A DNA stretch of 64,000 nt from Schmidtea polychroa (lineage: Eukaryota): contig CM097885.1 in the NCBI GenBank assembly GCA_044892525.1, forward strand, positions 28,398,001 through 28,462,000, written 5' to 3'. Each line of letters opens with the position of its first letter. Positions within the stretch are counted from its first letter, which is position 1. Positions 13,831 to 44,490 of this stretch are shown here, piece after piece. The translations under genes and the position numbers were made by a program. The notes below the pieces were generated by a model. That model did no database searches and had not been told where the DNA came from. It saw only the letters and a program-made list of their open reading frames with translations.

Positions 13831-14261
13831 TTAAGTAATCAAAGTAAAAAATAAAAATTAAAGTTAAATAAGTAAATTAAAGTAATAATTTTTTAAATAA
13901 GTAAATTAAAGTAATGTAATAAGTAAATTAAAGTAAGATTTTAAAATTTAATTACAAAATAATAGAAGGTGTTTGAGAATTGAAATTTTTTAATGAAAAT
14001 TTTTATGAAATAATTTTTAAGTAATTTTTAATAGAAATTTTAATGAAATATTTTTCAATGGTAATTTTTAATGGAAATTTTTATGGAATAATTTTTTAAG
14101 TAATTTTTAATGGAAATTTTTATGAAATATTTTTCAATGATAATTTTAGATGGAAATTTTTATGAAATATTTTTCAATGATAATTTTAGATGGAAATTTT
14201 TAAGATAATTTTTAATGAAAATTTTTATGAAATATTTTTCAAAGACAAATTTTAATAATAA

Positions 14262-15318: not shown

Positions 15319-15675
15319 ATTATTGGTTAAATATGAAAATAAGGGTTATAATTAGTTGTTTAGTAAATTATGGTGTAAAATTAAGTAATAAAGCATAAAT
15401 AGGTAAATTAAGGATAAGTAAATTAAAGTTAAAAAATTAAATTAAAGTTAATTAAGGTCCAAATTTTAAAAATAAGTAATCAATGTTCTAAAAAATTAAA
15501 TTAAAGTTAAATAAGTAAATTAAAGTAATAATTTTTAAAGAATTTAATTAAAGTAATAATTTTTAAATAAGTAATGTAATAAGTAAATTAAAGTAAGATT
15601 TTTAATTTTATTATCAAAAGATTGAATAACCACCAACTTTTTTGAGAAATGTAATTTATAATGAAAATTTAAATG

Positions 15676-15800
<125 letters not shown>

Positions 15801-18019: not shown

Positions 18020-18370
18020 ACATCACCCTTAAAAAATCATATATTCCCATCGAAACCCTTCCCTCATTAAAAGCAACCGACTATATCTCCCTTACAATAA
18101 TATATTCCCATCTTAACCCATCTCACATTAAATCTAACCGACTATATCCCCTTAAAAGATCATATTTTCCCCATCTTAACCGATCTCTCATTAAATCTAA
18201 CCAACAATATCCCATCTTAACCGATCTCTCATTAAATCTAACCGACTATATCCCTTTAAAAATCATATATTCCCATCTCTCATTAAATCTAATCGATAAT
18301 ATCCCATCTTATCCGATCTCTCAGCAAATATTTCTACCCTTTTAAACATCTATCCGATTATATCCCTTAA
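18020..18370. repeat. Tandem repeat CCCATCTTAACCGATCTCTCATTAAATCTAACC-like (mirror ~20405-20750)
   Basis: Direct reading. Confidence 0.8.
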
Positions 18371-19940
18371 TTTCCCTAAAGATTCCACCCACTTGAACCC
18401 TTTAATATATATCAATCCTCTTAATATCCTTAGAGAACTTCAAAAAGTATGAATTTTCATAAACTGTTAAAGACACCAGGCATTCTTCCATTGAAATAAT
18501 TTAGAAGCTAAATAATAAGAGCCCACTAAAAGATCAAAATTTACTAAAATTTTCTACAAATATTTACCATCAAATACTGGAGATGATATATATTGATTGA
18601 TCATAATTCTTCATCGATTCAACCAATCATTTTCAAGCAATAACAGCAAACTAAATTTCTGTATATCCTACAATAATTATCAAGTAAATTTAAAGTCATT
18701 GATAAATATTCTTAGAAAATTATTGAAAAAAATTATCTAGTCAAATATATTACAAAGTTATCATCAAAAATTTATTCTATCACTTAATTATTAACCTAAT
18801 TGTCAATGAAATTAATTTTTATTTAATAAACTAGTCGTGGCTTGTTACGTAATAAAATAGTTTAAATTACATATCCTTCTCACTTATATTCCACCGATTC
18901 TCATTATCCCACTATTTAATCTCCTATATTCCCCCGATTCTCCATTAATTATTCACTTATATCCCCTTTATTTTCCACTAATTATTCACTTAAAACATCC
19001 CCACAAATATTTGTTTTAAAAGTTTTTTTTTTATTAAATTTATGAATTTTATGAAATAATTTTAAATAAATTCAATTAATATACTTCCATTCTTATCCAC
19101 CTTCTTCTTATCTATGCCACTTCTCATTATCTACCTCCATTAATGGATTATTCTACCAATTATTTTCACCCATTTGAATCGAGTAATGAATAATTTCCTC
19201 ACTTTAATGAAGATTCTTACCACCTTCATTGCTAATTTTATCAAAATTTAAAGAATATTTCTCTTTACATTGCTTACCACTTTAGATTTTTTATCGAAAT
19301 TTGCGATAATTTGACTAATTCAATGATAAATGAGTTAATTAATATATACTCTGAGTTTATCCGACAAAATATTCTGTCCCCCTATGGGTATTGCTCACAA
19401 GGGTACTACTCACATTCAACATGTCGCAAGGGTATTAGTCGTAAAGGTATTTAATGTTTTTATTTGAATTTAGACAAATTTGTTGTTTAAGGTATTGATA
19501 ATTTTTTAGAGTTGATGGTTTTATTCAAGTAAATTTCTATCATTTTTATGAATTTCTATCATTTTTTGTAATTTTCTATTATTTTCATGAATTTCCGTAC
19601 TTTTTTGTGAATATGCGTAATTTTTGTAGATATCTATCATTTTCATGGATTTCTAACATTTTTGCAAATTTCATGTTTATTGAATGAATATTTAATAATT
19701 TCTTGATAATTGGATGTATTTTTATTGACTTGTTTTTTTTTTTTTAATTTTAAATAAAAATTATTTTCAATGAGGTTAATAATTAGAGATTTTACAATAA
19801 TGAAGTGGTAGGATAAATTTTTATGAGGATATTGAATAATTTTCTAAGAATTTCATGTTGACTGATTAAAAGTTTTAATGGTGATAAATTTAATTGATAA
19901 ATTTAGTTAATTTCTTGATAATTAGTTGTATTTTATTGAA

Positions 19941-26743
<6,803 letters not shown>

Positions 26744-27856: not shown

Positions 27857-29445
27857 CAGGGATTGCAAATTTCGAGGAAAATAAAAAAATCGGAATTCGA
27901 AATTCGAAAGTTAAATATATTTCGGAATTCGATCGAATTCCGAAATATTGTAAATTTTTTAAAATCTATACAAATAATAAAAATAACTTATTTGAGATAA
28001 TTTATTGTTATATATTGCATAATATTACTTTTTTTAAAATAAAAATGGAACATAAAATTATATCATTCAAAATGTAATATAAACATGAATGTATTGTACA
28101 CAAATTCAATTATTACATAACAATATAATAATAGTTAAAAATATATTATTTAAAATGTTATATAAACATAAAATTATTGTACAAAAATTCAATTAGTACA
28201 GAAAAATTCTAATATGGCATATCATTTAATAATAAAAAATATAAAATTATTCTTGTGTTTGCCTAAAATATGCTTTAAGAAAGCAGAGATCACTTAAAGA
28301 TGTGTCTCCGAGTCTCGATCGAACTTTTGTACAAAAGATACCTGCAATTGAGAAGGCTCGCTTGGACTCCACGCTCGATGGAGGAATCAAAATCAAAAAT
28401 GAGTAGACAGACTCTAATATTTTGCCACGAACGCCGTTTTCTTCAAAGAATTTCATTTCAGATTTAATTTTTGAAATTAAGATCCGATTTGCTATTTGTT
28501 GAGTTTTGCTGGAATGTATGTTAGACGATAAATTCAATTGAATTTTGTTCTGCGACTTTTGCATTAACGACTGGGGATTGGTTTGTTCTTCCGACATCAC
28601 CTCTTCACATCTTCTGACTGCTCACCTGAGGAAGTTTCCATGTTAGTGTTAAATATCAATCTTTGTGCAAAGCTTTCAATAACTTTGGCTATTGCATTTT
28701 TCAATGTTCGTCTTTGGGTTATTCGGTTTTCTAATTCGTTCTTCAATTTTAATGAAAGTTCATCAGATCCCAAATTTTCAAGCATAAAAGACAATGCCGC
28801 ATCAGCAGAAAGCAGATTTGCATCTTCTCGACAAAGGGCGTCAATAGTAAGCTTCACTGGGAGAAGTGCAGAGATCATGTTGTTAATCGAGAAAATTTCA
28901 GCATCTAGAATAACGATATCAGACTCAATGTCAATCAATGCCTTTCTAACACAGCTTTTTAGTTGGTTAAATCTTTCAAGCATTTCGACTAAGCTATTCC
29001 ATCTAGTTCTAGTGTTCATAATAAGTTTCAACTCTTTTCCAAATTCTTGTTTCACGTATACTTGAAGGATATCATTCGATGTTCTCGAAAAACGAAATTT
29101 CTTTACAATCGAACGAACTTTTTTGATGAGAAAACCAAATCCAAATTCTTCAGTCTTAACATGCTCAGCTTCAATATAAATTTGTTCAATCAAGCCAACA
29201 CTTTCATCATCAATGTATTCCTCATCCTCTGATTTCTCGAAGTCACTTCCTTGTTCTTCTACGCTAACATTTTCTGTATCTGTGTGAGCCACCAATTCAT
29301 CAGTTGTATTCGAATTATTATACAGAACATTAACTACAGCTAAATATATCGCGTGTGCAAAGCACAACTGTTGATTACATAGTAAAAGCCGCCCAACCTT
29401 TTGCATCACAGCTGCCCCATCAGTTGTTATGGACGTAATATCTTT
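27857..29445 (-). mobile_element. 3' portion of hAT transposon interrupted by the Polinton
   Basis: Terminus CAGGGATTGCAAA at 27857 followed by TTCGA/CGGAATTCG subterminal repeats; transposase on the minus strand. Confidence 0.75.
28247..29445 (-). pseudogene. hAT transposase, central and C-terminal part (frameshift near 28600)
   Basis: ITTDGAAVM, CFAHAIYL, TRWNS and the hATC motif PPSSVESKRAFSIAG...KVRSRLGD...CFLKAYF. The first ~16 aa of ORF 28597-29493 are Polinton TIR sequence, not transposase. Confidence 0.9.
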
Positions 29446-30238
29446 AGTAGTGTGGTTATATACCCAACCAAAACAGCCCTCCCAACCAAACATGCCTCCA
29501 AATCACTTAAGCTATTAGAAAAACAACCTAAAACTTATACTTTTATAGTATTTTAACCCTATATTTTGAAAACAACCACCCTTAATGACTCTAACTGTTT
29601 TAATCTTTAAAGCCTCAAACTCAAAAGCTTTTTTTTTTCACTGTCCTCTCAACAGTTTTTTTGATCCGGATCATTTTTTTTTTTATTTCAACCTCTTTCG
29701 TTTATCAAATCTCTTCCAATATACAAGCTGGCCAGACTCATACATCAGAATCAATCCGATAATAGCAGCACGCCTTATTATTCGCTTCTCGCTCACGAAG
29801 TCGATTTCAACGGCGTTTTAAGCGTGCTGCTCGAAAGTACAAATGAATTCGAAAGCGAATCCGAAAGAGGTCCGAAAACAACTGAGAAATAAATGTGCAC
29901 ATTACCGGGATCGATCCGGGGGTGTTCGAAAGACAGGTGGCGATAATTACCGGTTCGCCACCATCACCCGTTTCAATATTTTTTTTTTCATATTTGTGTT
30001 TAAAAAATAATTAATTAATAAAAAAATAAAATAAAATAAAATAAATAAAATAAAATATACAAGTACTTTATAAATCTAAGATACCCACACTATTTTCAAT
30101 ATTATTTTCAAATTTTTAATATTATTTTATGTTGAAAAAAAACTAACCTCAGATGTGATTTGAACCACTATCCATTTGAACCACTGTGCCAGTCTATTCC
30201 CACTGCGCTATCTAGGATTGGATTTTTGTCATTTTTTA
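29446..30238 (+). repeat. Polinton left TIR (~790 bp; lacks a ~190-bp segment present in the right TIR)
   Basis: Reverse complement of 43210-44188 except ~43815-44003. Confidence 0.9.
30146..30217 (-). ncRNA. tRNA-like Pol III unit in left TIR
   Basis: Minus strand TCCTAGATAGCGCAGTGGGAATAGACTGGCACAGTGGTTCAAATGGATAGTGGTTCAAATCACATCTGAGGT: A-box TAGCGCAGTGG, duplicated B-box GGTTCAAAT, T8 terminator (30135-30142). Confidence 0.5.
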
Positions 30239-30464
30239 TACTATAAATAATCGATTCAAGTTCTTTAACTCTTTCCTGTAATTGTTTCATTTTCTTCAAT
30301 CTTATATCAGCAACATCTACAGCCTTCATATAAAAATGTCGATACTTTTCATTATCTACCATCAACTCTTTGATGTATTCTAATGGTTCTTCTTCTCTTC
30401 TTTTCATTCTCTTATGTTTAACTTCATTCAATTCATTTCTCATTCTTTCTTTTAACTCATCCAT
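30168..30464 (-). CDS. Small charged coiled-coil protein of unknown function (Polinton accessory)
   Basis: 98-aa ORF with AAAATG start context, E/K/R-rich helices; C-terminus runs into the TIR. Confidence 0.5.
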   Translation of the reverse strand: MDELKERMRNELNEVKHKRMKRREEEPLEYIKELMVDNEKYRHFYMKAVDVADIRLKKMKQLQERVKELESIIYSIKNDKNPILDSAVGIDWHSGSNG

Positions 30465-30634
30465 TTTTATAAATATTTTTTTATTGGATATATTAATTTT
30501 TGGTAGCTTAAGTTAAAACGTTTTTGATCTTAAATTTCCAAGAGTTGCCGTTGACCAATCTCCTTAAAAATTTGTACAAGTACTAAATCGAGTATGCTGA
30601 TCAATATTTCGTTAAAAAAAAATTTGAAAAAAAA

Positions 30635-30707
30635 TGACCGAAATGGGATTTGAACCCATTGGTATTGGCAATGCAGTCGAGTGCTATTACCACTAAGCTA
30701 TTAGAGC
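30635..30707 (-). ncRNA. tRNA-Cys(GCA)-derived Pol III RNA / tRNA-like gene
   Basis: Minus strand GCTCTAATAGCTTAGTGGTAATAGCACTCGACTGCATTGCCAATACCAATGGGTTCAAATCCCATTTCGGTCA (73 nt): A-box, D-arm, CT-GCA anticodon loop, perfect T-arm ATGGG-TTCAAAT-CCCAT, T8 terminator. The 3' strand of the anticodon stem does not pair. Confidence 0.7.
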
Positions 30708-30829
30708 TATACTCAATATAAAATAAGTTGTTAATGTGTGACTATTTATTGATGAAATTAATAATTAATTATTCATTTTCTCGACAACTACCACTCAGAT
30801 CCATCTGAAAATTTAAATATATACTAAAA

Positions 30830-32070
30830 TCAGTACGCTGAATCAGATTCCGTTGAAAAAAAATATCCCCCCCCAACTCTCCCCAACTTCAGGATCTATT
30901 GCAAACTTAAATCGTAGGGGTGATATAGTTTTTCAATCTCTTCAAACATCAAACCCTATAGATATTTGTAATGCCAAATTATATTATAAAATCGAATTAG
31001 AAATTGAAGCAAACAAAGATATAACCCTAGAAAATAATTTCTTTCCAAATTTATTCTCCAACATGAGATTAAAACTAGGATCATCAGAAATTGAAACTGT
31101 TTTGCATCCGGGAGTATATTCTACAATCTTAAATTTTATTTTGACTGGTTGTGATTATAAAAACTAATATGGTGAATTAACAGGTTGGATTCCTGATGTT
31201 AATAAAGGGGATTTAGATAAAGATGGTTTAGATGTAAACCATGGTTACCATAAAAGAGCTGAACTTTATAAATCTAAAAAATTTGAAGGTTATTTTGAAT
31301 TAAAACACTTGTTTGGATTCCTTCAAAACTATAATCGTATACTTCATAATGTTTTTATAGAATTCATCTGTAATAGAGTAGAAGGTGATAAAAGATTGTT
31401 CTATGGAGCTGTAGATACAAAAGCTAAATTAAAATTATCAACACTTGAATTACATATACCTGAATGGACATTAAACCCACATTCTGAGATTAAACTCCTT
31501 GAAAGATTAAATTCCAACAAGTCTATAAATGTAAATTATTTAAATAGAATCTGTAGTGAATTTAGTATGACAGAGGGTTCAACATATTCTATAAAGGTAG
31601 CAAATTTAGCATACCGACCAAGATATATCTTGATTGGATTCAAAGAAGTAGATTCATCTTTCCAAAAAAATAACAACTTGTTTATTCAAAAGATTGGAGT
31701 TGATAATTTAAAAACAATCCAAATTCAATTAAATAGTTCTTATTATCCAATAAATAGAATGGAATTTAATATTGAAAATAATGAAAACATATTCCCATAT
31801 CTAAATTATATTGAAACATGTTATGATTTCAAAGTTGAACCGCAATTAAGTTTAGAAGATTTCAAAAATTTATATTCTATATTTTGTATAAATGTTTCAG
31901 ACCAAGATGATCGCCTAGCCATAAATAATGTTGATGTTACACTTCATGTAACAAAGGATTCTAATTTTAAAGCTAAAGTATATACATTAATATTAGAAGA
32001 AAAGAAAATAGAAATGAAATTATATGGTGGAAAGATTTCAATAATCGAAAATGTTAGGGGAGATTCTTGA
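30830..32070 (+). pseudogene. Double jelly-roll major capsid protein (hexon-like), with one in-frame TAA at 31165-31167 and a probable 5' frameshift
   Basis: ORFs 30853-31167 and 31309-32070 are in the same frame. Read-through gives YGELTGWIPD...NHGYHKR...LKHLFGF, plus NFFPNLFSNMRLKLG, RPRYILIGF, QLNSSYYP, YSIFCINVS typical of Polinton MCPs. Confidence 0.8.
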
Positions 32071-32099
32071 TATAATCCCTGATATTTTAACATTTTAAA

Positions 32100-33509
32100 A
32101 TGTCTCTAAATAAATATTGGAGATGTGAAAGTTGTAATTGTCAAGTTACAAGACATCATAAAGCAAATCATTTAAAAACTAAAAAACATGCAGGAGGTGA
32201 TCTAATTCCACGAGCTGGAGGCGATTTGCAATCTTCAAAAACAACATCTTCAATATTAAAACCTTTTACTACAGAAAAATATCCAGGTGAAAGACATTTA
32301 TTTAAACACAACTATACTGGACCAGGAACACGTCTAGATATTAGATTAGATGAAAATAATAATCCCAAACAAGGAGAAGAACCAATAAATAGAATTGATC
32401 AAGCAGCTTTAAAACATGACATTGCATACAATTCAACAAATCTTAGAGATAGACATGTTGCAGATGTGAATTTAATACATGATTTAAATAGTATCCAAAA
32501 TCCATCAACCCAAGAAAAGATTCAAAGAGCTCTAGTTAAATTAGCAATGAAAGGTAAGATTTTCATAGGCTTAGGACACAGTCCGATCACCATGGGTGCA
32601 AGACTTCCTAGGAAAGCAAAAGATGTTGCTTATAAAAAGATTATCGAACAAGCAGAGATTGAAAGATCCCTCGAGAGTACAGCCAAGACTAGTTTACAAA
32701 CCCCAACAGAATCAGAAATAAAATATGCAAAGGAATTACACCATGAATTTAGAAAAAATAAAAAATATTTAAAAGTTCAAGTACATGAAAAAGATCAAAC
32801 ATGGTCTGCAGATTTAGTCTTTATGCCTAAATCATCAGACCCTGAAAAATATAAAATAATTTTAACTGTAATAGATTTATATACAAGATTTGCTTTTGCA
32901 AGATGTTTAGAAAATAAAACAGGATATTCTATTACAGAAGCATTTGAAAATATATTTGAAGAAAATCAAAGAATCCCAAAATATTTATGGTGTGATAAAG
33001 GAACAGAATTTTATAACAAAGTTTTTACAAAGTTTTTAAATGAAAATGATATTAAATTATATTCAACAGAAAACGAAGGAAAAGCAGTCGTAGTTGAAAG
33101 ATTAAATAGAACATTAAAAAATAAAATGTGGAAATATTTTACTGATATTGGAAAACAAAAATGGAACAATGAATTGTTACAAAAGATTGTAAATGAATAT
33201 AATAATGATGTACATAGTTCTATAAAATTAACACCTTTAAATGCTTCCATGAAGCCTGAAACCATTAAAGTGGTAAATATTGAAAATGATGTTATTGAAA
33301 AACCAAAGTTTAAAATTGGTGACCGAGTAAGAATATTTAAATATAAAAATAAATTTGAAAAAGGATTCACAGCAAAATGGACAAATGAAATTTTTATTAT
33401 AAATAAAATAAATTATACAACTCCAATAACATATAGCATCTTTGATTTAAATAATGAAAAAATATTAGGTAGATTTTATAATAATGAACTACAGAAAACA
33501 GATTTTTAA
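32100..33509 (+). CDS. Retroviral-like (c-)integrase with N-terminal C2H2-like Zn finger and parvovirus-type phospholipase A2 domain
   Basis: CESC...HLKTKKH; HNYTGPG...PINRIDQAALKHDIAY; DDE core WSADL / LWCDKGTEF / VVERLNRTLK; C-terminal KFKIGDRVRI...FEKG...WTNEIF. Confidence 0.92.
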   Translation: MSLNKYWRCESCNCQVTRHHKANHLKTKKHAGGDLIPRAGGDLQSSKTTSSILKPFTTEKYPGERHLFKHNYTGPGTRLDIRLDENNNPKQGEEPINRIDQAALKHDIAYNSTNLRDRHVADVNLIHDLNSIQNPSTQEKIQRALVKLAMKGKIFIGLGHSPITMGARLPRKAKDVAYKKIIEQAEIERSLESTAKTSLQTPTESEIKYAKELHHEFRKNKKYLKVQVHEKDQTWSADLVFMPKSSDPEKYKIILTVIDLYTRFAFARCLENKTGYSITEAFENIFEENQRIPKYLWCDKGTEFYNKVFTKFLNENDIKLYSTENEGKAVVVERLNRTLKNKMWKYFTDIGKQKWNNELLQKIVNEYNNDVHSSIKLTPLNASMKPETIKVVNIENDVIEKPKFKIGDRVRIFKYKNKFEKGFTAKWTNEIFIINKINYTTPITYSIFDLNNEKILGRFYNNELQKTDF

Positions 33510-33520
33510 GTCGACAAGCC

Positions 33521-34312
33521 CTAAAACAAACTTTTCCATATTTCAGCTTCTTCTCTATCCAAATAAATATAATTATATTTTTCTTTCCAATGATTATCAA
33601 CAAACATATCAAACATATTCTTATCAGGTTCAACATTTGAAAATAAATCATTATAAATCATATTCTTATCACGGCGATCTAATTTAAAAAATATAAAACA
33701 ATTGGAATTATTTCTTATTGAATTTTTATCTAAAGCATAATATGTTTGAGATATATAAATAACATTACAATTATTATGTCGACCTCGTGTAAAGTAACTC
33801 TTTTGAATCTCTTGATTTTTCATATTAACAACATCATCAAATATAACTAGATTCTTTTTATCTTTAGGAAGTAAATCACAATGTAAAACATCTTCAGGTT
33901 TATTAGAGAATAAAACTTGAATTGCCTCCTGCCCTTCTTCACAAATATAATCATTTTTATTACTAATATCTGATTCTAAAATCTTTTCCTTATACCAATC
34001 AACCATATCACAAGGTTGAAAAACTTCTTCAGGACACCTATGTTGATTTTTAAAAATATCAATTATTGCTTTTTTAGTTAATTTATTTTCAAATCCACAT
34101 TTCAAAAGTTGTAATTCTGGTTGATTTATGGTTGTAGAATAAAAGATTAAATTATTATAATCTAAAAAATCATCTTCAAGTAACATTCTCAAAACAAGTA
34201 CATTCTTTCCACATCCAGAAGAACCAACAATTAATAATCTAAAATTATCAGGAAATAACTTATTATTAAATTTACTTTTGTGTCGAGTTAAAATTGGTTT
34301 CCAAATATCCAT
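33521..34312 (-). CDS. A32/FtsK-like genome packaging ATPase
   Basis: Walker A GSSGCGKN, Walker B LVIFDD, FTRGRHNN..YISQ, IRNNS. ATG at 34312 (MDIWKP) preferred over the longer non-ATG start. Confidence 0.92.
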   Translation of the reverse strand: MDIWKPILTRHKSKFNNKLFPDNFRLLIVGSSGCGKNVLVLRMLLEDDFLDYNNLIFYSTTINQPELQLLKCGFENKLTKKAIIDIFKNQHRCPEEVFQPCDMVDWYKEKILESDISNKNDYICEEGQEAIQVLFSNKPEDVLHCDLLPKDKKNLVIFDDVVNMKNQEIQKSYFTRGRHNNCNVIYISQTYYALDKNSIRNNSNCFIFFKLDRRDKNMIYNDLFSNVEPDKNMFDMFVDNHWKEKYNYIYLDREEAEIWKSLF

Positions 34313-34327
34313 TTTGTTTATTATAAA

Positions 34328-34905
34328 ATGACAACTGAAGAATCTTTGCAAGAATTAATAAATTCAAATAAAAATAAATCAGTAGTAATTGATGGTAAAA
34401 AATATTTTATTGGAAAACATGTAAAAGAACAAGTTAGAGCGAAGCTCCACGAAGCTAAAGAAGGTGGCATTCTTCCATTAGCTGCTTTAATACCTGCAAT
34501 CATTGCTGGTTTATCAGGTGCTGCTGGAATAGCTGGAGGAATTGCAACTACAGTTCAAAAAGCTAAAGAATCTCAAAAGACAGACCTAGAAAAAGAAAAC
34601 TACAAACTGAAATCGATTCAATGAAGAAGGTAGGGCAAGCTAAAGGGGGAGTGTCCGTTGGAAAGGGTCTCTATCTTAATCCATATGAGGGGAGTCGGCA
34701 AAAGTCTCAGGGCAAAGGTCTCTATCTTGATCCTTATAAAGGTAGAGGTTTAAATGATTTTTTAAAAAATCAAATTTCTACATCTGAATCTTTATCTTCA
34801 AAAGATAAAGAAGATTTAAAAAAAATATGTAAATCTTTAAAGAATGGATGCCTTTGTAAAACTAAAAATGGTAAAGGATTATACTTGAAGCCCTTCGAAC
34901 TATGA
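34328..34905 (+). CDS. Adenovirus pX-like core protein precursor, split by a -1 frameshift at the A-run 34596-34599
   Basis: EGGILPLAALIPAIIAGLSGAAGIAGGIA hydrophobic segment and three GKGLYLxP(Y/F) repeats. Adding one A fuses both ORFs (DLEKEKLQTEIDSMKK). Confidence 0.7.
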
Positions 34906-34927
34906 TACCATTTTTGATACCATTAAA

Positions 34928-35809
34928 ATGGTATATGAAGAAAGATTAGCACTTTTAAAAAAATTACAATCTGAACAAGATAAATATAATAAAAAAGATA
35001 CAACTCAACATGCTGAATCTATAATATTAAATGAGGTAATAACACAACAACAGGGGCCAACAATTAAAGCTATAAAAGAGTTGGAAGATTTCAATGAGCA
35101 AGCAAAATTTAAAGAGTTAGAAGATAAAAAACAAAAAATAAAAGAACTAGAGTGGCAGGATAAAGAAAAAGAATCCAGTGAAAACCATCCTGAAAGAAAT
35201 CAAAGAAAACGCAGAAGAATTTCTAATGTGGAAGAAGAAGAAATGTTTTTAAAAACAAAAGCTCTTAAAGTTGATCCTAAAATTAGAGATGATTTACCTC
35301 CTTCAATTAGACCCACATTTAATACTAATACTGAAGGATATCAAATAATAACAATTAATAAACAAAACTTTACTTTATATTCAAATTCAGAAAATAAATC
35401 ACGTATTCATTCACAAAATGTTTATAATAATGAATATTTAGACTTTGAATTTACAGATGATTTTTATAGATTACTTTGTGGATATTCTTCAGATGATGTT
35501 GAAGAAATTAAAAAATATTTAAATTTAATAAGATTAATAAGAGCTAGTTCTAAAGCAAAATATATTCAAGATTTAAAGAATTATTTAAATAAAAATGAAA
35601 AGGGTTATGTTGTTACAGAGGGAGAGGGATTAATTAGTGAAGGTGGTAAACCAAATCCCATCAATCTTTTTATTGAATTAAGAAAACTATTAGCTGCAAG
35701 GAAAGCAGGACATAATAATTTAGATTCTGATATTTTAAAGATTTCTAAAGATTTGTTAAAACAAGGAATAATTTCAAAAGATAAATTTAATAAGTATACG
35801 AAGTTATAA
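34928..35809 (+). CDS. Conserved Polinton hypothetical (probable virion) protein
   Basis: 293-aa intact ORF; coiled coil, NLS-like RKRRR, C-terminal GEGL...NPINLFIELRKLLAARKAGHNN motif resembling other Maverick accessory proteins. Confidence 0.7.
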   Translation: MVYEERLALLKKLQSEQDKYNKKDTTQHAESIILNEVITQQQGPTIKAIKELEDFNEQAKFKELEDKKQKIKELEWQDKEKESSENHPERNQRKRRRISNVEEEEMFLKTKALKVDPKIRDDLPPSIRPTFNTNTEGYQIITINKQNFTLYSNSENKSRIHSQNVYNNEYLDFEFTDDFYRLLCGYSSDDVEEIKKYLNLIRLIRASSKAKYIQDLKNYLNKNEKGYVVTEGEGLISEGGKPNPINLFIELRKLLAARKAGHNNLDSDILKISKDLLKQGIISKDKFNKYTKL

Positions 35810-35831
35810 ATACGAAGTTTTAAAATACAAA

Positions 35832-36296
35832 ATGACTCCTTCAATATTAGATTTTTTAAAAACATTTGGAATAAATGCAAAAACAAATTTTGATTTAAAA
35901 GATTATGCAAATTATTTAAATTTAAAAATTAAAATATTAATGAATGATGAATTATCAAGTCTGGAGAGTCCCCTGAATATAATAATCAATTATCAAAATT
36001 CAAATGAAAAAGGATCTCATTGGGTTTGTATATATAAGAAATCTATCTACTTTGATTCTTTTGGGATTAAACCTACTAAAGAAGTTGAAGATTATCTCTT
36101 GAGGGGTTCTCCGATTGATTCCCCAAATGGTTATACTTTTAACTCTTTACAAGTTCAACCTTTGAATACTAAAATATGTGGTATTTTAAGTTTATATGTT
36201 TTGTATAGATTGAATAAGGGAGAGGGAAAGGGGCATACGCAGGATTTTGAATCTATAATTCAAGAAATTTATAATGATCTAGAATCTCTACTATAA
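35832..36296 (+). CDS. Adenain-like cysteine (maturation) protease
   Basis: GSHWVC, YFDSFG, QVQ....ICG (catalytic His/Asp/Gln/Cys). Confidence 0.9.
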   Translation: MTPSILDFLKTFGINAKTNFDLKDYANYLNLKIKILMNDELSSLESPLNIIINYQNSNEKGSHWVCIYKKSIYFDSFGIKPTKEVEDYLLRGSPIDSPNGYTFNSLQVQPLNTKICGILSLYVLYRLNKGEGKGHTQDFESIIQEIYNDLESLL

Positions 36297-36344
36297 GGAT
36301 TTTTACTATAAGGATTTTTACTATATGAATTTACTACTAAAGAA

Positions 36345-37109
36345 ATGGAGCTTCACAACCCTCCGGAAGATAATTTAAAAAAAATGGTAAACATAATGTC
36401 AGATAAATATTCAAGAACTTTATCTATAAATTCAAAAGAATCAGAGTTTACTATAAACTTTCAAGATTCAATTAAATTAGATCAAAATTTAAATTATGAA
36501 TTGGGGCTATTATGGTTTTGTGCTTATAATACTATTTTTAATATAACTAAAGATAATAATAAATTTACTATTCAAACTCGTGATGGGCATAAACCAGAAA
36601 TTATAACAATAGAACCTGGGGCATATGAGATAAAAGATTTAAATGATATACTTTCTAAAAAAACAAATGAAGGTATTAAAATTAAAATGGATATACCAAC
36701 TTCAAAATGTGTAATGACTTTGAAGAATATAAAAATTAGTTTTTTAGATAATTGTTTCTTTCACACAGTTTTAGGATTTAAACCTATGGATATAACAATA
36801 AAAGAAGATAAAATAATAACATCAGAAAATATTATAAAAATAATAAATACAAACACAATAAATATTCATTGCGATTGTATAACAGGTTCTTATAATAATG
36901 GTAAACAAACAAATGTTTTATATTTCTTTCCCTCAAACACAGTTCCTATGGGATATAAAATAGTTGAAAGAATGAATCCTCCAAATTATTTACCTTTATG
37001 TAGAAAATATATAATGGATATTAATTTTAAAATTCTTAATCAAGAAGGAGAATTGATTGATTTTAATGGAGAAGAGATTTCAATGTATTTACATTTGAAA
37101 CAGGTTTGA
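36345..37109 (+). CDS. Minor capsid protein (penton-like single jelly roll)
   Basis: IEPGAYEIKDLN, NIHCDCITGSYNNG, PMGYKIVE...YLPL, NQEGELIDFNGE motifs of Polinton minor capsid proteins. Confidence 0.85.
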   Translation: MELHNPPEDNLKKMVNIMSDKYSRTLSINSKESEFTINFQDSIKLDQNLNYELGLLWFCAYNTIFNITKDNNKFTIQTRDGHKPEIITIEPGAYEIKDLNDILSKKTNEGIKIKMDIPTSKCVMTLKNIKISFLDNCFFHTVLGFKPMDITIKEDKIITSENIIKIINTNTINIHCDCITGSYNNGKQTNVLYFFPSNTVPMGYKIVERMNPPNYLPLCRKYIMDINFKILNQEGELIDFNGEEISMYLHLKQV

Positions 37110-37133
37110 AGATTCATTTTAAATTATTAATTA

Positions 37134-38144
37134 ATGAGTTCTTATATTCCATGTAATAGAGGTGGTGGAACAATAAAAACAGGGTTTAATACAGAAGAAA
37201 TATTAACTTTAACAGAAAATAAATATATTAATGAAAGAGGTGATTCAATGAAGGGTGATTTAATTTTAAATGGACACAAGATAAAAGAATTATCTTTTCC
37301 AACTGATGAAGCTGATGCAGTTAATAAGAAATATGTAGATGGTGTTAAAAAATATACTGATTTAACAACAACAAGAATTGAAAGTTCATTAACAACAAAA
37401 ATTGATTCAATGGAATCAAAGCTTAATAATATCGAACAACGATTTAATGATAAATTTGACAAGTTACAAAGTCTGTTAACTGAACAAGTTGTAAAGTTAA
37501 ATACTGCTATATTAAATTCTAAAGATAAACAAATTATGAATACTAAATTTAATACAATATATAAAATAATAAATGAGATGATTACATCATTTAATAAAAG
37601 AATTTCAAATTTAGAGTCTCATGGAACACACATTAACACCACACGTAGTATTAGAAAAAGAGCTGCTGAATTAGAACAGAATAAAACATTATTACCCCAT
37701 ACATATAAACATTTTATAGAACCAAGTTTAATAACAACAAACAGTAAAGAATGGGGTGTTTTTATGGTTGTAAAAATTATTGATCCTTATTTCTTTTTGT
37801 TTGATGATGATAATGAAAGAATGAAATGGTTTGTGAAATGTGATTATAATAGTAAGCTTGAAAAGGGTGATGTTATAATGACTAGTTATGATTTACCACA
37901 CGGAGATTGGTATGTTAATACTCATTCACATGGACTACATAAAGTTAAAAGTAAGAATATTCATTTTTCTAGTTCACTTGTACAATATATAGATTTAATA
38001 TTTTATGAAAAAAAGGTTGATGTTGATGAAGTTCGTAAAGCATTGAGAGAATTGTATAAAGATATCCTCTCAACAAGAGTTTCTTTTGATATCCGAGTAT
38101 TGGTGCCAGATGGTGCTCAGAAGAATAAAGTCTTATTTTTTTAA
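37134..38144 (+). CDS. Putative fiber/spike protein
   Basis: GDSMKGDLILNGHKIKELSFPTDEADAVNKKYVD (tail-fiber / trimeric adhesin neck-like motif), long coiled coil, RSIRKR, then a globular C-terminal domain; directly follows the penton gene. Confidence 0.6.
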   Translation: MSSYIPCNRGGGTIKTGFNTEEILTLTENKYINERGDSMKGDLILNGHKIKELSFPTDEADAVNKKYVDGVKKYTDLTTTRIESSLTTKIDSMESKLNNIEQRFNDKFDKLQSLLTEQVVKLNTAILNSKDKQIMNTKFNTIYKIINEMITSFNKRISNLESHGTHINTTRSIRKRAAELEQNKTLLPHTYKHFIEPSLITTNSKEWGVFMVVKIIDPYFFLFDDDNERMKWFVKCDYNSKLEKGDVIMTSYDLPHGDWYVNTHSHGLHKVKSKNIHFSSSLVQYIDLIFYEKKVDVDEVRKALRELYKDILSTRVSFDIRVLVPDGAQKNKVLFF

Positions 38145-38152
38145 TTATTAAA

Positions 38153-38746
38153 ATGGAAGAAGTAAGAGAAGAAAAAATTTACCCAGAATTGAGATCATCA
38201 GGATATTATTCTTCCAAGGTCTCGGCTCCCACAGAACTTGAAATTATGAGAGTAAAAGAATTTAAATCAGAAACCTTACATTTACAAGATTTTTTAAAGC
38301 ATTATAAAAAAATTAAAAATAGATGGAATAAAGGGAATACAGTTTTAAAAGTTATAGGTTATTCTTTAGGATTTGCATCTGCAATATTAACAGTTATTTT
38401 ACCCATAACTTTACCAGTTGTTACTCTTGCACCTATAATACTTGGAAGTATTTCTGTGGCTGATGGTTTCTTAACTGAAATAGTTTCATTATCTTATACT
38501 TCTAAAAAGAAAAGTTTATATAGAGAAGTTTGTTTATCAATAGAATTAGGAATCTCTAAATTATTTTTATTTCAATTAAAAGCTTTAGAAGATGGAATCT
38601 TAACTGATGATGAAATAATGAAATCAAATCAAATAATTCAAGATATTAAAAATGAAGTTATAAAATTAAAAAGTGCAAATATTATAACTAATGAATATTC
38701 TAAAAAAATTAAACGAGACAAGTGGTTAAAGAATTCTTACTTATAA
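38153..38746 (+). CDS. Polinton membrane protein (hydrophobic hairpin)
   Basis: KIYPEL start motif, hydrophobic stretch VIGYSLGFASAILTVILPITLPVVTLAPIILGSISV, KALEDGILTDDE motif; 3' end may be frameshifted. Confidence 0.7.
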   Translation: MEEVREEKIYPELRSSGYYSSKVSAPTELEIMRVKEFKSETLHLQDFLKHYKKIKNRWNKGNTVLKVIGYSLGFASAILTVILPITLPVVTLAPIILGSISVADGFLTEIVSLSYTSKKKSLYREVCLSIELGISKLFLFQLKALEDGILTDDEIMKSNQIIQDIKNEVIKLKSANIITNEYSKKIKRDKWLKNSYL

Positions 38747-38832
38747 AATGGATGAATTTTTAAAAAAGTAGATCAAGTTGCTATAGTTGCTTAAATTAAT
38801 TGTCGACATTTTATTATTAAATATCGTTGGTT

Positions 38833-41800
38833 TCAGTTATGGTTGAAAGCCAACCTATGAATCATTAATTTATGATCTTTAAATTCTTTATCACTTAGAC
38901 CTTTTATATATTCAGAATCAGTATTAAAATATTTAAGTTCTAAACATATAGGATTAAAAACTTGAGAACATAAAGGTTTCTCGATTTCTCTCTCGGGATA
39001 AATAATTTCAACATTATAAATATCAAGATCAGTAATCTTTGTATCATATAACTTATTCAACTTTTCTAGATTTTTTATTATAGGGATTAAATTATTTCCA
39101 ATAGGTAGAGTTGTCTTTAAATCACTTAGTATGAATCTCTTATCATCATAATTTGATAATGATACTTTTTGAGATTCTATCAAGTGAATATCATGGTTTT
39201 CACTTTTAAGTTGATGTATTTCATCAATTTTATCTTTATGATTTGGATTCAATGTATCTATATAATCTTGATGAGAAAGATTCTTTGCAACCACTCTCTG
39301 TATTCCTTTACATCTCTTATCCTTTACAGGTTTTTCTTCTTGTCCCTCTGGTCCTTTAGGAAATATAGGATATCTATGTGTAATGGTTTCTTCTGTTTCT
39401 GGAGTTTTAAATATAAATGATCTAGTTATAAATTCAGGGTTTCTAAATGTTTCGTATGAATATTGTTTAGCACGAATAAATATTCCATTTTCTATAGGAG
39501 TAAAAGGTTTTTCATCTTTAAACGAAAATAGTTCTCCAGATGAATTTATTAAATTTGAAAGTATAGGATTTTCTTTCATATCTTTTTGTAAATCATGAGT
39601 TCTTATTGTTAAAAACATTGAATCTGTATCCATTGCATGCATTGATATATTTGCTCCGTATATAGGTTGTAAGATGTTATAATATGTTTCATACATTTGT
39701 AATTTTGAAAGTTCTAAAATTGTAAACCCTATAAATATTGGTTTGTTATATGTTTTCTCATAATTTTTTAATTCTACTGCAGTAAGATTTTCAGAAAATA
39801 CTTGTGCGTTTTTAAATGTAGGCTTTCCTAGCATGCGATTATAACGCTTAATATCTTTGGTAGTATTTGTTAGGAGTTCAATATGAGTATATTTATCAAC
39901 ATTCTCCATTGTTTTCCCAAATACTGAATTGTTTAAAAGTTTATAATTATTATCTTTAAAAAGGTTACCTTCTCTTTTTGCAATGTTTCGACACCTAATG
40001 TTCTCCTCGATGAAAGCTTTCATGAATGGAGCTTGTTTAAATCTTATGACACTATGAACTTTTTTTAATATCATTCCTCGTGAGAGATAAAATTGGAGGA
40101 GTCTATAGTGACAAAGATAAAACCTTCGATCTGTTTGATCACAAAGAAGTTTCATTGTTGGAGGTTTATCTTGTGAGATTTGCCATTCAGAAAGTTCGTT
40201 GATATCAATCTTTCTTCTTATGGGAGCTAAAGGAAAATATCTTGTTCCTGATTTTATATCATCTGGATAGTCGAGGTCACATTCTATAAAGTAACCTATT
40301 GGAGAATCTTTCGATGTTGAAAGTATTTCTTTCATAAGGTCATCTGTTGGGTTCTCTATTTCAGTGAAATCACTCATTGGTAAATATTGAGTCATAATTC
40401 CTGAATATAAAGCTGTTGCATCTATATAAAGTATAAATATAGGATTTTTCATTGTTTCTAATAATTCTTTTAATTCCTCATTGTTAATTTTCATATATGG
40501 ATCATCAGGGTGTTTAGATAGTCTTCGGCTAGTAGTTATTGCATTTCTAGCTTTTATTTCTCTATTCCCCATTACTGAAGAGACTCCTCTAATGTTTGTT
40601 TTAATTTGGTTAAACATATCGAGGTTAGTTAAAAGATCTATAATTTTATCAGCATCTTCTATATTTGAAGTGCAAATGGTATATAACATAGTATCCCAAG
40701 CTAAAGAGGGTGCAGTTATATAATTATAAGGTTTAAGAACAAAAGAGTTTGTAAATTCTTCAAAGCAATCTGCTAGAATATAAACATCTAAGGATAAATG
40801 CATGTTGGTATATTCTCCTAAAGTTTTACACTTGAATAATTCCCACATTTTAATGCTCGAGAATATTCTTGATCTGTAATCCCTGATTGTAGTAAGTTTG
40901 AAAAGAAATCTTCTTTGTTAGGAAGACTTGTTTCATTATATCTTTCAAACGAGTCAACATAGTCATAAGGATATATTCCTTTTGCTAAGCATGTAGGATA
41001 TTCTTCTGGAGGAATATTATTTTTTTCCAAGAATTCTCGAGTGATTTTAAAATTTTCTGGTTTCATTGTTTTTGCTACTGCATCTAGAGACATTTGGAGA
41101 AAGTTTAACGAGTCTATAAATTTTAATTTTCCATATTCAACTGATTTATATTTTTCCTTTGTTAAGCCGATAACTTTGAAAGAGTTTTTAGCATTTGCTG
41201 CTAAATGTTTAATAAATAGATGTATGTCATATCCAAAAAGATTATGAAATATAACAGGTATAAATTTAGGAGTATGGCAATTAAGATTGCAATTTTTATG
41301 AGCTGCTCCTCGATAATTATTTTCCTTTTTTAAATGATCATGATCTATAACTTTTTCATCAGGAAGAATATTCTGTTTACACATCCAACAGTTGGAAGTA
41401 TTTTCATATTCTTGTTGTTGTTGATTAGAAATATTTTGAGGATACTTTGTTTTTAATATTTTAAATATTTCATGTTCTAGATCATTTATATTTTTAGTAA
41501 AATGATTCAAGACTTCTTCAGGGGTACCTCCTAGAATTGAATATTCTCTAGATTCTATGAGTTCAGGATAATTACTTTTAAATAATAATTTATAAGCAGA
41601 TGGTAATTGTTTAGTTTTTTTAACACTATTAAATTTATTTCTTTTTCTTAGAAAGGCTTTCATCCTCTCTGGTTTCATCTTCTCTCCTGAGGAGTTCCAT
41701 AAATCCATGAGTTTATTTTTTTCTATTATTTTTAAATATTGATAAACCAAATCTTGTTTATGGTTTATAGATTCAAAGTCACCATAAAGAACTCCAACTG

Positions 41801-43163
41801 TTTGTAGTAAATTTGAAAAGTTTTTAAAATACATCTTGGGATTATTAGGCATTTTAATTAAAGCTGGATCATCTTTTTCACAAAATCTTGTATGTTTAAT
41901 CATAGAGTTTTTAGTTGTTGAATAATGAAGACATCTTTTACATGTTCCTCCTCCACTAGTTGGATTCTCTGGAGATGTAAAAGCTTGAAAGTTTTTTATT
42001 AAAACATAATGTTGATTATTTTCTTGTTCCAAGATTAAAAGATATATCTCGTTGTCCTGTGCTCCGTTATCCTTGGTTCCACTATCTGAAATATAAATTG
42101 GAATAATTTCTTTCCCTATAACATGTTCATAAATATTAAGTTTAAGATTATTTAATTTTTCAAATTCTGGAATGTCTTCTAGTTTCATTGGGTGTTTGAA
42201 TCCTTTGGGAAATATTAATTCATTTTCATATTGTTTGTATTTTGAAACTCTTTGGGGATTTGTTGCTTGAGGATGTAAATGTGCAAGTATTGACCAGATG
42301 AAACATTTGTTATCATTATTCTGTACATTTATAACATTTTTAGATTTAAAGGGTGTAGGAATATAAGATTTAGGATTGGGTGGTAATCCTCTCCAATAAT
42401 CAATCACTAAAGTTTGGAAAGAGTTGAATACTAAGTTTGAATCTCCTAATTCATTTTCTACTTCCTCTTGTTTTGCTTCTGCTGCTTTAATTATTTCTTT
42501 GATGGTTTTATCAAATCCTTTAATTGAAAATAAATATTTAAAAGGTATTCCAATTTCAACATCTAAGGGTGTTGTCTTTTCTTCTGCTCCTCGCCAGTAT
42601 TTTGCTTTGATTATAATTTTATATTTTATAACATTATACCTTGTCGGTTTATAATTTTTTAAAGCTTCAGTGAAAGAATTTTTAATATTTTCTTTATTTT
42701 TATTTATATATTCTCCAGGAGTTGCAGGCCCATTAATTTTTAATTGAAATTCATCTATATGATTAAAATTATCCCAGTTATATTTTTCTCTTTCAACATG
42801 ATCAGGTTCTCCTTCTGAATGACATTCCTCATCGTCAGAATTTTGTTTTTTATTTTTACATTCTTTTATATGTTCTAAATAATAGAAATTTAGTTTTGTT
42901 GAAAAGTTACAATGAGGACATGTAAATATTTCTCTATTTTTCCCGATACAATTTTCAAAATGTTTATTATATCCAGAATGTAGAAATCTTCCTTTACATT
43001 TAAGACAAAGTTTTGAATTTTTATCATTAAGATTATTTTCTTTTAATAAATGAGCTTTCGATTTTAAGTGAGAAATTAATCCAGTTTTATTTTTAAAAAC
43101 TTTATTGCAAATATTACAATTCATTTTTAGAAAAAAAATTTTTATTGGATACCCTGTTTTCAT
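38833..43163 (-). pseudogene. Protein-primed family B DNA polymerase (pPolB), split by a one-base frameshift at ~40848-40851
   Basis: ExoI YGDFES, ExoII FHNLFGYD, ExoIII DVYILAD, motif A YIDATALY, motif B KLLNNSVFGK, motif C DTDS. Adding one A restores RALKMWELF across the two ORFs. Confidence 0.93.
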
Positions 43164-43209
43164 TTTATTTTTTAAGATTTATATTATTCATTTTTTATAA
43201 TAAAAATTT

Positions 43210-44188
43210 TAAAAAATGACAAAAATCCAATCCTAGATAGCGCAGTGGGCTAGACTGACACAGTGGTTCAAATGGATAGCGGTTCAAATCACATCTGAGG
43301 TTAGTTTTTTTTCAACATAAAATAATATTAAAAATTTGAAAATAATAGTGTGGGTATCTTAGATTTATATTTTATTTTATTTATTTTTATTTTATTTTAT
43401 TTTATTTTATTTATTTTATTTATTATTTTATTTTTTAAACATAAATATGAAAAAAAAAATATTGAAACGGGTGATGGTGGCGAACCGGTAATTATCGCCA
43501 CCTGTCTTTCGAACACCCCCGGATCGATCCCGGTAATGTGCACATTTATTTCTCAGTTGTTTTCGGACCTCTTTCGGATTCGCTTTCGAATTCATTTGTA
43601 CTTTCGAGCAGCACGCTTAAAACGCCGTTGAAATCGACTTCGTGAGCGAGAAGCGAATAATAAGGCGTGCTGCTATTATTGGATTGATTCTGATGTATGA
43701 GTCTGGCCAGCTTGTATATTGGAAGAGATTTGATAAACGAAAGAGGTTGAAATAAAAAAAAAATGATCCGGATCAAAAAAACTGTTGAGAGGACAGTGAA
43801 AAAAAAAAAAAAAATACCACTGTCCTCTCAGAGCAGTTTTACTATTTTCATAAAATTTTTTATTCTTCAAGACATCAAGATTAAAATTTCATTTATTTTT
43901 TTTAATTAGCCAATTAGCAACTTGCTAGTTGGCATCCTCAAGTAGCCTTCTAACTTTTTCATAATACCATTTTCTTTTCTATTCTCTTTATGTTTTTAGT
44001 TTGAAGCTTTTGAGTTTGAGGCTTTAAAGATTAAAACAGTTAGAGTCATTAAGGGTGGTTGTTTTCAAAATATAGGGTTAAAATACTATAAAAGTATAAG
44101 TTTTAGGTTGTTTTTCTAATAGCTTAAGTGATTTGGAGGCATGTTTTGTTGGGAGGGCTGTTTTGGTTGGGTATATAACCACACTACT
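43210..44188 (-). repeat. Polinton right TIR (~980 bp)
   Basis: Reverse complement of the left TIR plus an extra ~190-bp segment. Confidence 0.9.
43231..43302 (+). ncRNA. tRNA-like Pol III unit in right TIR
   Basis: A-box TAGCGCAGTGG at 43238-43248, B-box-like GGTTCAAATCAC at 43281-43292, T8 at 43305-43312. Confidence 0.5.
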
Positions 44189-44194
44189 ATCTTT

Positions 44195-44490
44195 ATCGAT
44201 ATTTAGATTGTTGTCTTGCAATGTGATTTTCAGGGCCGTAATGCATTTCTCTGCAGGGAAACGTCCTTCAACACGAACTAAACCTAAATTCCAAACCTGT
44301 TTCTTGCCATGGACATTCAAATTTAAATAACATCGGTTTCTTGATGATGTCCTTTCATCTATAGTTAAGGAAAATCGTGTTCCATCTTATTTGATATTAA
44401 TTAAATCCTGCATAATTTTAGCACGCGTTTTTTGTGCGTATTCTAAAACCATTTTGCGAATTGAGTTAGGTGAACGTGACAAATTTGAAG
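44195..44490 (-). pseudogene. Upstream part of the interrupted hAT transposase
   Basis: RFSLTIDERTSSRNRCYLNLNVH...WNLGLVRVEG...LQDNNLNIDKD joins in frame to ITSITTDGAAVM once the Polinton and one TSD copy are removed. Confidence 0.88.

What the first reader, a model, noticed from the sequence alone, without database searches (positions are those of the whole stretch)
30635..30707. Polinton-borne tRNA-Cys-derived Pol III gene: possible VA-RNA analogue
Seen: 73-nt unit with A-box TAGCTTAGTGG, B-box GGTTCAAATCCC in a perfect T-arm, 5' half AGCACTCGACTGCA matching eukaryotic tRNA-Cys(GCA), and an immediate T8 terminator. Anticodon and acceptor stems are disrupted, so promoter and terminator are kept while decoding structure is lost. 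Established: adenoviruses express tRNA-promoter Pol III VA RNAs that antagonise PKR and Dicer. Inference: an adintovirus small RNA (RNAi decoy or miRNA precursor) or a TFIIIC-type chromatin barrier upstream of the capsid gene. I do not recall such RNAs being described for Polintons.
Basis: partly seen in the sequence, partly recalled or inferred. Interest (0 to 1): 0.8.

Follow-up and report, generated by a model that had tools for sequence, protein, structure and literature searches.

The report
Polinton-captured ribosomal spacer tRNA relic
The tRNA look-alike inside this virus-like transposon also sits, nearly letter for letter, in the spacer of the host's main ribosomal DNA repeat, so it is most likely a captured host signal for RNA polymerase III and not an adenovirus-style viral decoy RNA.

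Summary
The 73-nt unit is real, on the minus strand: A box, B box in a paired T-arm, T8 terminator, broken anticodon and acceptor stems. It lies in a Polinton (29446-44188) but is not Polinton-specific. Window 30500-30867 is 97% identical to the spacer of the host's main rDNA type, where the unit sits in 1-3 tandem copies, antisense to the rRNA genes, in 10 of 10 spacers covered. Of 3,092 exact motif matches, 1,686 carry the rDNA-type letter. Only 28 of 80 capsid-anchored Polinton copies carry it. Spacer-to-Polinton capture is seen directly in another copy, where a 1,760-bp, 99% spacer piece splits PolB. An older Polinton has the unit at 86% in both ends with the boxes kept and the GCA changed, and a second rDNA type lacks it, so its ultimate origin is open. 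Verdict: a likely TFIIIC/Pol III cassette captured from rDNA; VA-RNA reading not supported; transcription untested. The scan noted this cluster and the spacer link before in this genome.

The parts
30635..30707 (-). Unit 1: degenerate tRNA-type (type 2 Pol III promoter) unit, 73 nt
   Evidence: Rfam RF00005 32.4 bits; stem check; 1 of 73 positions differs from the host spacer copy L112
30690..30700 (-). A box
   Evidence: Sequence; identical in the 86%-identical old Polinton L222; fits the A-box pattern in 33 of 42 Polinton copies
30646..30656 (-). B box in a 6-bp paired T-stem
   Evidence: Sequence, pairing; fits the B-box pattern in 42 of 42 Polinton copies
30627..30634 (-). T8 run, predicted Pol III terminator
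   Evidence: Sequence
30500..30867 (-). Segment homologous to the host type-A rDNA intergenic spacer (L112:6859-7229, 97.3%); 497 bp long in sisters, where it also holds unit 0
30867..30875 (.). Deletion junction in this copy; sisters have about 230 bp more here, including unit 0
30144..30217 (-). Unit 2: A/B-box unit with T8 in the left TIR; no match in the rDNA spacer
43231..43303 (+). Unit 2, right-TIR copy (ends approximate)
30168..30464 (-). 98-aa ORF between unit 1 and unit 2; no Pfam match
30875..32070 (+). Major capsid gene (double jelly roll), broken in this copy; the 3' 167 codons are open
   Evidence: PF21738 E 9.7e-11; ORF list
29446..44188 (.). Polinton/Maverick (adintovirus-like) with TIRs, 6-bp target-site duplication (29440-29445 and 44189-44194), PLA2-integrase, A32 ATPase and PolB in two ORFs

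Best explanation
The unit is a worn-down tRNA-type promoter cassette that this Polinton lineage likely captured from the host's rDNA spacer and that is predicted to act as DNA, by binding TFIIIC, more than as an RNA. Shown: the sequence, its tandem array in the type-A rDNA spacer antisense to the rRNA genes, its patchy presence in Polintons with several different junctions, and one direct spacer-into-Polinton insertion. Inferred: TFIIIC binds the A and B boxes and may load TFIIIB and Pol III, giving a 75-80-nt RNA that ends in the T run and cannot decode. In rDNA the array would serve as a boundary or fork-pause site beside a conserved block that may be the Pol I promoter. A 497-bp piece entered the Polinton at a 6-nt microhomology, probably by template switching or recombination, and spread with a young burst of copies. 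In the Polinton it is accessory: a passenger or at most a weakly useful boundary.
For: Spacer identity 97.3% over 371 bp, 1 of 73 differences in the unit. Present in 10 of 10 type-A spacers covered, 1-3 copies at a 243-bp period, between 28S and 18S. 1,686 of 3,092 motif matches have the rDNA-type letter, and the 100 listed lie at places matching rDNA repeats. Polinton junctions differ (L112 6811/6831/6859/6870/6891 to 7140/7332/7355/7421-7445) but all nest inside one continuous spacer. The segment stays 95-97% identical between Polintons whose capsid genes are about 90% and whose PolB DNA is 72-75% identical. A 1,760-bp, 99.0% spacer piece interrupts PolB in a TIR-bounded copy at C1:245.23 Mb. 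In run X9 one 1,392-nt contig spans spacer 6337-7728 across all junction sites and has the Polinton-type letter at 4 of the 5 diagnostic sites; the fifth lies in a skipped repeat. A satellite holds an 85-86% copy joined to 118 bp of spacer-only flank. Window-type carriers sit on short branches of the capsid tree. A sister without the segment shows the empty site with the shared 6-mer. Boxes are kept while the GCA changes in the old lineage.
Against: An old Polinton (L222) has unit 1 in both ends at 86%, as diverged as the satellite offshoot, so Polintons held it long ago too. The second rDNA type (18S 91.7% identical) lacks the array, so it is not an essential rDNA part. Unit 1 is as close to the Polinton's TIR unit 2 as to host tRNA-Cys, which fits a Polinton origin. 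Old-lineage divergence in the unit is lower than rare-allele rates predict (8:22 against 26:25, Fisher p = 0.038, one uncorrected test), which fits some selection inside Polintons. The empty site could be a deletion between the 6-nt repeats. The capsid tree is blurred by recombination (window-type label needs 4 changes). No binding or transcription data were obtained.
Confidence: 0.55

Rival explanations
1. Two-way traffic with a Polinton origin: the unit arose as one of a family of Pol III units at Polinton ends, an old element end entered type-A rDNA and was fixed by concerted evolution, and modern Polintons re-took it from the spacer. This agrees with recent spacer-to-Polinton capture and differs on the first origin.
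For: Units 0, 1 and 2 share an unusual D-loop and 3' end and score 47-59 against each other. L222 has unit 1 in both ends at 86%. Type-B rDNA has no such unit. The spacer array lies between old inverted repeats of 66-84% identity.
Against: No Polinton ORF remnant in the spacer (tblastn). No match between the spacer's inverted arms and 80 Polinton left ends. A third spacer unit lies outside every terminal Polinton segment. The satellite shows spacer flank at equal age.
Confidence: 0.2
2. Selected boundary in the Polinton: the captured cassette is kept because bound TFIIIC or Pol III shields the divergent capsid gene from heterochromatin, or tethers the element to Pol III or nucleolar sites.
For: At least three junction types, all near element ends. 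Carriers form a large young burst of at least 1,105 copies. Weak constraint signal. Planarian Polintons are targets of PIWI silencing (PMC8532177, passages; that the host is a planarian is my inference).
Against: 28 of 80 copies reach a terminal motif without it. Rare alleles fall in the boxes as often as in the rest of the unit (0.36 against 0.37 per site). One sub-lineage has lost the unit's first 9-10 bases.
Confidence: 0.15
3. Dead relic in both places: a tRNA pseudogene array carried along by rDNA homogenisation and Polinton copying, with no binding that matters.
For: Broken cloverleaf; absent from type-B rDNA and from most deep Polinton branches; spacer-branch change in the unit (4 of 73) is about the same as in its flanks (9 of 149).
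Against: A box, B-box core, T-stem and T run all survive 14% divergence in the old lineage, while the satellite copy loses them at the neutral rate.
Confidence: 0.15
4. VA-RNA analogue: an abundant viral Pol III RNA that decoys Dicer, Argonaute or a dsRNA sensor, or yields microRNAs.
For: Intact type 2 promoter and terminator; folds into two hairpins with z = -2.85, 2 of 200 shuffles as stable; high copy number.
Against: The same RNA would come from more than 1,600 host rDNA copies. The fold is not kept in the old Polinton lineage. The unit is dispensable. Stems are 9-10 bp, short for a Dicer or PKR ligand, and PKR is a vertebrate protein (both recalled). No Rfam VA match in the element.
Confidence: 0.07

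Closest known systems
A/B-box loci on the Dictyostelium extrachromosomal rDNA element (PMC5391098; abstract and section 17 read)
   Same: tRNA-type A/B-box motifs without a proper tRNA, in non-coding rDNA; proposed there as Pol III complex assembly sites, possibly fork-pause sites, without direct proof
   Different: Here they keep tRNA size, a T-arm and a terminator, form a tandem array in a chromosomal rDNA spacer, are in one of two rDNA types only, and are shared with a Polinton
tRNA genes in Polinton-like viruses and MELD viruses (PMC12220804 and PMC8502044; passages read)
   Same: tRNA-model hits inside midsize capsid-encoding elements; host origin proposed
   Different: Those are reported as predicted tRNAs with a proposed codon-supply role; this unit cannot form anticodon or acceptor stems and its donor is the rDNA spacer
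Adenovirus VA RNAI/II (recalled)
   Same: Intragenic type 2 Pol III promoter and T-run terminator in a PolB/double-jelly-roll element
   Different: About half the length, no conserved terminal, central or apical stems, not virus-specific, absent from many copies, expression unshown
tDNA and ETC (extra TFIIIC) chromatin boundaries; yeast 5S gene in the rDNA spacer (recalled)
   Same: Box-bearing units in tandem; opposite orientation to the rRNA genes in the spacer
   Different: No occupancy or barrier test here; the units are degenerate tRNA-like, not 5S or functional tRNA genes
tRNA-derived SINEs (recalled)
   Same: tRNA-like head with A and B boxes, thousands of copies
   Different: No body, tail or own target-site duplication; 30 of 30 sampled matches lay in a Polinton (27) or in the rDNA spacer (3)

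Membership tests
Functional tRNA gene (tRNA-Cys) | Cloverleaf with paired acceptor and anticodon stems | tested here: not met
   Acceptor 5 of 7, anticodon stem 2 of 5; ARAGORN default finds none
Functional tRNA gene (tRNA-Cys) | Anticodon GCA kept across lineages | tested here: not met
   Changed in the old Polinton L222
Functional tRNA gene (tRNA-Cys) | Closest to host tRNA-Cys | tested here: inconclusive
   5' half Cys-like; full-length scores Cys 54, Lys 53, unit 0 58, unit 2 59; only two host tRNAs compared
Type 2 Pol III transcription unit | A box and B box at tRNA spacing | tested here: met
   both fit in 33 of 42 Polinton copies
Type 2 Pol III transcription unit | Downstream run of 4 or more T | tested here: met
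   T8 at 30634-30627
Type 2 Pol III transcription unit | TFIIIC/Pol III occupancy and a transcript | not testable with these tools
   No listed run is on record as RNA and only contigs were available
VA RNA-like viral RNA | Virus-specific gene, fixed in the viral lineage | tested here: not met
   In host rDNA spacer; in 28 of 80 capsid-anchored copies
VA RNA-like viral RNA | Long, conserved stem structure (about 160 nt, recalled) | tested here: not met
   73 nt; fold changes in the old lineage; no Rfam VA hit
VA RNA-like viral RNA | Abundant expression and binding to PKR, Dicer or Argonaute | not testable with these tools
   No read-level data
tRNA-derived SINE | Dispersed solo copies with tail and target-site duplication | tested here: not met
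   0 of 30 sampled matches, the first 30 on C1, were solo copies
Polinton/Maverick (the carrier) | TIRs, 6-bp target-site duplication, PolB, integrase, ATPase, double-jelly-roll capsid | tested here: met
rDNA intergenic-spacer sequence | Lies between 28S and 18S in tandem rDNA repeats | tested here: met
   28S ends at L112:4310, segment at 6859-7355, 18S starts at L113:414

The most novel reading that the evidence does not exclude
A Pol III cassette shuttles between the rDNA spacer and Polinton ends and is selected in both: Polintons take it up repeatedly because TFIIIC/Pol III binding shields them from PIWI-guided heterochromatin or docks them at nucleolar sites, and the host's main rDNA type may itself have gained the array from an older Polinton.
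Probability: 0.15. Interest if true: 0.72.

Novelty: new variant of a known kind. Interest (0 to 1): 0.36.

Why it matters
It removes this unit as a VA-RNA candidate and points to two more testable things. First, an array of tRNA-like A/B-box units sits in the spacer of one of two rDNA types in an animal, so the two types give a natural with-and-without comparison of what such sites do in rDNA. Second, DNA passes repeatedly between rDNA and a very abundant virus-like element, with more than a thousand carriers and many non-carriers to compare. If the cassette proves selected in Polintons, it would be a way for a DNA transposon-virus to borrow a host chromatin boundary.

Tried and rejected
Relatives in viral contigs: the ATPase found none, so conservation in other organisms' Polintons was not tested. 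Host SINE: rejected, 0 of 30 sampled matches were solo copies. Excess conservation among close sisters (0.33 against about 1 substitution per 100): set aside because those 29 copies were picked by similarity to this region; in 42 copies picked mostly by capsid or flank motif the boxes had no fewer rare alleles than the rest of the unit. The rDNA rows of the distance table mix tandem duplicates with unit 0 and were not used. Expression: no RNA holder listed. Two runs guessed to be RNA (X15, X16) were laid as contigs; depth was thousands on 29668-29935 and under 10 on unit 1, but contig depth cannot rank parts and a 75-nt RNA is easily lost, so this is not counted either way. Conserved two-hairpin RNA: rejected, not kept in L222 or the satellite. 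Ancient rDNA feature: type-B spacer has no unit. ARAGORN at lowered threshold gave mostly noise. Literature: ten searches listed no paper on degenerate Pol III units in animal Polintons or on their capture from rDNA; none of the 15 listed of 228 papers contained 'VA RNA'. The library lacks most subscription papers, and no supplements or Repbase entries were seen. I recall tRNA genes reported in the Hydra rDNA spacer, but one search did not find that paper. PMC11067881 (passages) was not informative.

Full report
1. Observation. The unit reads on the minus strand, 30707 to 30635. Rfam's tRNA model scores it 32.4 bits, above the cut-off of 29; ARAGORN calls nothing in the window. The A box (30700-30690), the B box (30656-30646) in a 6-bp T-stem and a T8 run (30634-30627) are present. 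The acceptor stem pairs 5 of 7 and the anticodon stem 2 of 5. A strict box-box-terminator pattern occurs once in the window and never in 200 resamples. The Cys label fits only the 5' half: full-length scores are 54 against host tRNA-Cys, 53 against host tRNA-Lys, 58 against neighbouring unit 0 and 59 against TIR unit 2.

2. Carrier. The unit lies in a Polinton at 29446-44188 with TIRs, a 6-bp target-site duplication and capsid, PLA2-integrase, ATPase and PolB genes; capsid and PolB are broken in this copy. A second A/B-box unit with T8 sits in both TIRs. Most sisters have a third unit (unit 0) upstream, lost here in a deletion at 30867/30875.

3. Where else it is. A 13-nt motif from the unit has 3,092 exact matches in the 781-Mb genome and the reversed control has 0. 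Of the first 30 on C1, 27 are in Polintons and 3 form a 243-bp tandem between two 5.8S genes. In 20 fetched stretches, 10 of 10 spacers covered at that position hold the segment, with 1-3 copies of unit 1 plus unit 0, antisense to the rRNA genes. Of the other stretches, one only begins the segment, five do not reach that part of the spacer (judged from coordinates) and two hold a truncated repeat with no 18S. One rearranged repeat at C1:29 kb has satellite DNA in place of a normal spacer. Window 30500-30867 is 97.3% identical to the spacer, and only this segment of the Polinton matches it. A third, more worn unit lies 150 bp further along the spacer. The rDNA-type letter gives 1,686 matches, a spacer flank motif 715, and the window-type Polinton junction 1,105.

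4. Is it needed by the Polinton? I took 80 of the 126 copies scored with the capsid family, chosen without regard to the unit. 28 carry unit 1, 28 carry only unit 2, and 24 carry neither; 28 of the 52 non-carriers reach a terminal motif within the stretch held, and some of the rest may be truncated. On a capsid tree (81 rows, none left out) window-type carriers sit on short branches and deeper branches mostly lack the segment; recombination blurs the tree.

5. Direction. (a) Polinton junctions differ and all nest in one continuous spacer: window type L112:6859/6870-7355 between the capsid gene and the 98-aa ORF, long type 6811-7445 further out towards the end, and an old type 6891-7140. (b) The segment is 95-97% identical between Polintons that are about 90% identical in capsid and 72-75% in PolB DNA. 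(c) At C1:245.23 Mb a 1,760-bp piece of spacer, 99.0% identical, splits the PolB gene of a TIR-bounded element: direct spacer-to-Polinton transfer, although this piece starts just upstream of unit 1. (d) Both young Polinton types share letters that differ from most of this genome's spacers. In run X9 a single 1,392-nt contig runs through the whole spacer region without a break and carries the Polinton-type letter at 4 of these 5 sites, the fifth being in a skipped repeat; a capsid contig of similar depth is in the same run. I infer that the Polintons copied an older spacer allele. Contigs drop rare variants, so this shows presence in rDNA, not absence from X9's Polintons. (e) A 1,245-bp satellite (20 motif matches) holds an 85-86% copy joined to spacer-only flank. 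(f) The window-type junction has a 6-nt microhomology, and a sister shows the empty site.

6. Against a simple story. The old Polinton L222 has unit 1 in both ends at 86%; spacer, L222 and satellite are about equally far apart in the flanks (9, 12 and 11 private changes in 149). So Polintons have held the unit at least twice. A second rDNA type on C3 (18S 91.7% identical, six 18S genes in the stretch) has no such segment, and the one spacer scanned has no B-box core and no tRNA hit. Units 0, 1 and 2 look paralogous. The first origin, host tRNA array or older Polinton end, is therefore unresolved.

7. What is conserved. In L222 the A box, B-box core, T-stem and T run are kept while the anticodon region changes. 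Differences from the window copy are 8 in the unit and 22 in flanks, against rare alleles of 26 and 25 in 42 copies (p = 0.038, single test); the satellite follows the neutral ratio, 18 and 15. The window and spacer RNAs fold into two hairpins (z = -2.85), but L222 and the satellite do not keep that fold. This pattern fits weak selection on promoter DNA, not on an RNA structure.

8. Mechanism. Established knowledge (recalled): TFIIIC binds A and B boxes, loads TFIIIB, and Pol III stops at T runs; such sites can act as boundaries and fork pauses. Inferred: the cassette does this in the type-A spacer, where it lies 450-1,100 bp from a 169-bp block shared by both rDNA types, possibly the Pol I promoter, and points away from it. 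In the Polinton it is an accessory capture. Nothing here shows binding or transcription.

9. Known parallels. A/B-box loci without tRNA context on Dictyostelium rDNA (PMC5391098, abstract and section 17). tRNA genes in Polinton-like and MELD viruses (PMC12220804 and PMC8502044, passages). PIWI silencing of planarian Polintons (PMC8532177, passages); that this host is a planarian is my inference from genome traits and no call shows it. VA RNA features are recalled. Ten searches listed no paper on this arrangement; supplements and repeat databases were not seen and could bear on novelty.

10. Verdict. Observation confirmed, interpretation partly supported. New variant of a known kind, interest 0.36. 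The scan has reported this cluster several times in this genome; relative to the few lines shown of those notes, this report adds the direction tests, the old lineage and the rDNA type contrast.

Noticed in passing
L112:6996-7550 (G000:C97 type-A rDNA spacer): Array of three different degenerate tRNA-like A/B-box units, all antisense to the rRNA genes, between old inverted repeats (66-84% identity); unit 1 varies from 1 to 3 copies per repeat.
   Followed up: partly
L223-L229 (G000:C3:144.545-144.615 Mb): A second rDNA type (18S 91.7%, 28S about 89.6% identical to the main type; period 11.57 kb) with no A/B-box array; two of its 28S genes are interrupted by insertions of several kb. It shares a 169-bp spacer block (86%) with type A.
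   Followed up: partly
L211-L212 (G000:C1:245.223-245.235 Mb): TIR-bounded Polinton with a divergent PolB split by a 1,760-bp, 99%-identical rDNA spacer piece.
   Followed up: yes
window 29668-29990 and 43450-43770: GC-rich TIR region that earlier scan notes call a structured RNA candidate; it drew very high contig depth in two runs guessed to be RNA. Not evidence as it stands, but a better small-RNA candidate than unit 1.
   Followed up: no
L219-L220 (G000:C1:145.9-168.3 kb) and L217: 1,245-bp macrosatellite containing a decayed 460-bp spacer piece with unit 1 and a short-period internal repeat.
   Followed up: partly
L077, L078, L090, L091, L159, L175, L176: Polinton copies with very short left ends (terminal motif 410-540 bp from the capsid anchor) and no Pol III unit; the family swaps ends and PolB modules (PolB DNA 68-75% identical among copies with near-identical ends).
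   Followed up: partly
window 28597-29445 and 44189-44400: The Polinton appears to split a transposase-like reading frame with hAT-type motifs (label recalled; no Pfam hit for the 298-aa ORF).
   Followed up: no
window 12334-26626: Very large inverted repeat (arms up to 99-100% complementary over several kb, 1,114-bp centre) with internal 30-bp and 7-bp-unit tandem arrays.
   Followed up: no
L031-L040, L071-L076: Host tRNA genes occur in long tandem arrays (Lys at 424-bp period on C4; Cys at 281-bp period on C1, 1,018 motif matches), a possible source of tRNA-like units.
   Followed up: no
window 30168-30464 (-): 98-aa ORF, few substitutions among close sisters (0.45 per 100), whose 3' end runs into unit 2; present in only some lineages.
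   Followed up: no
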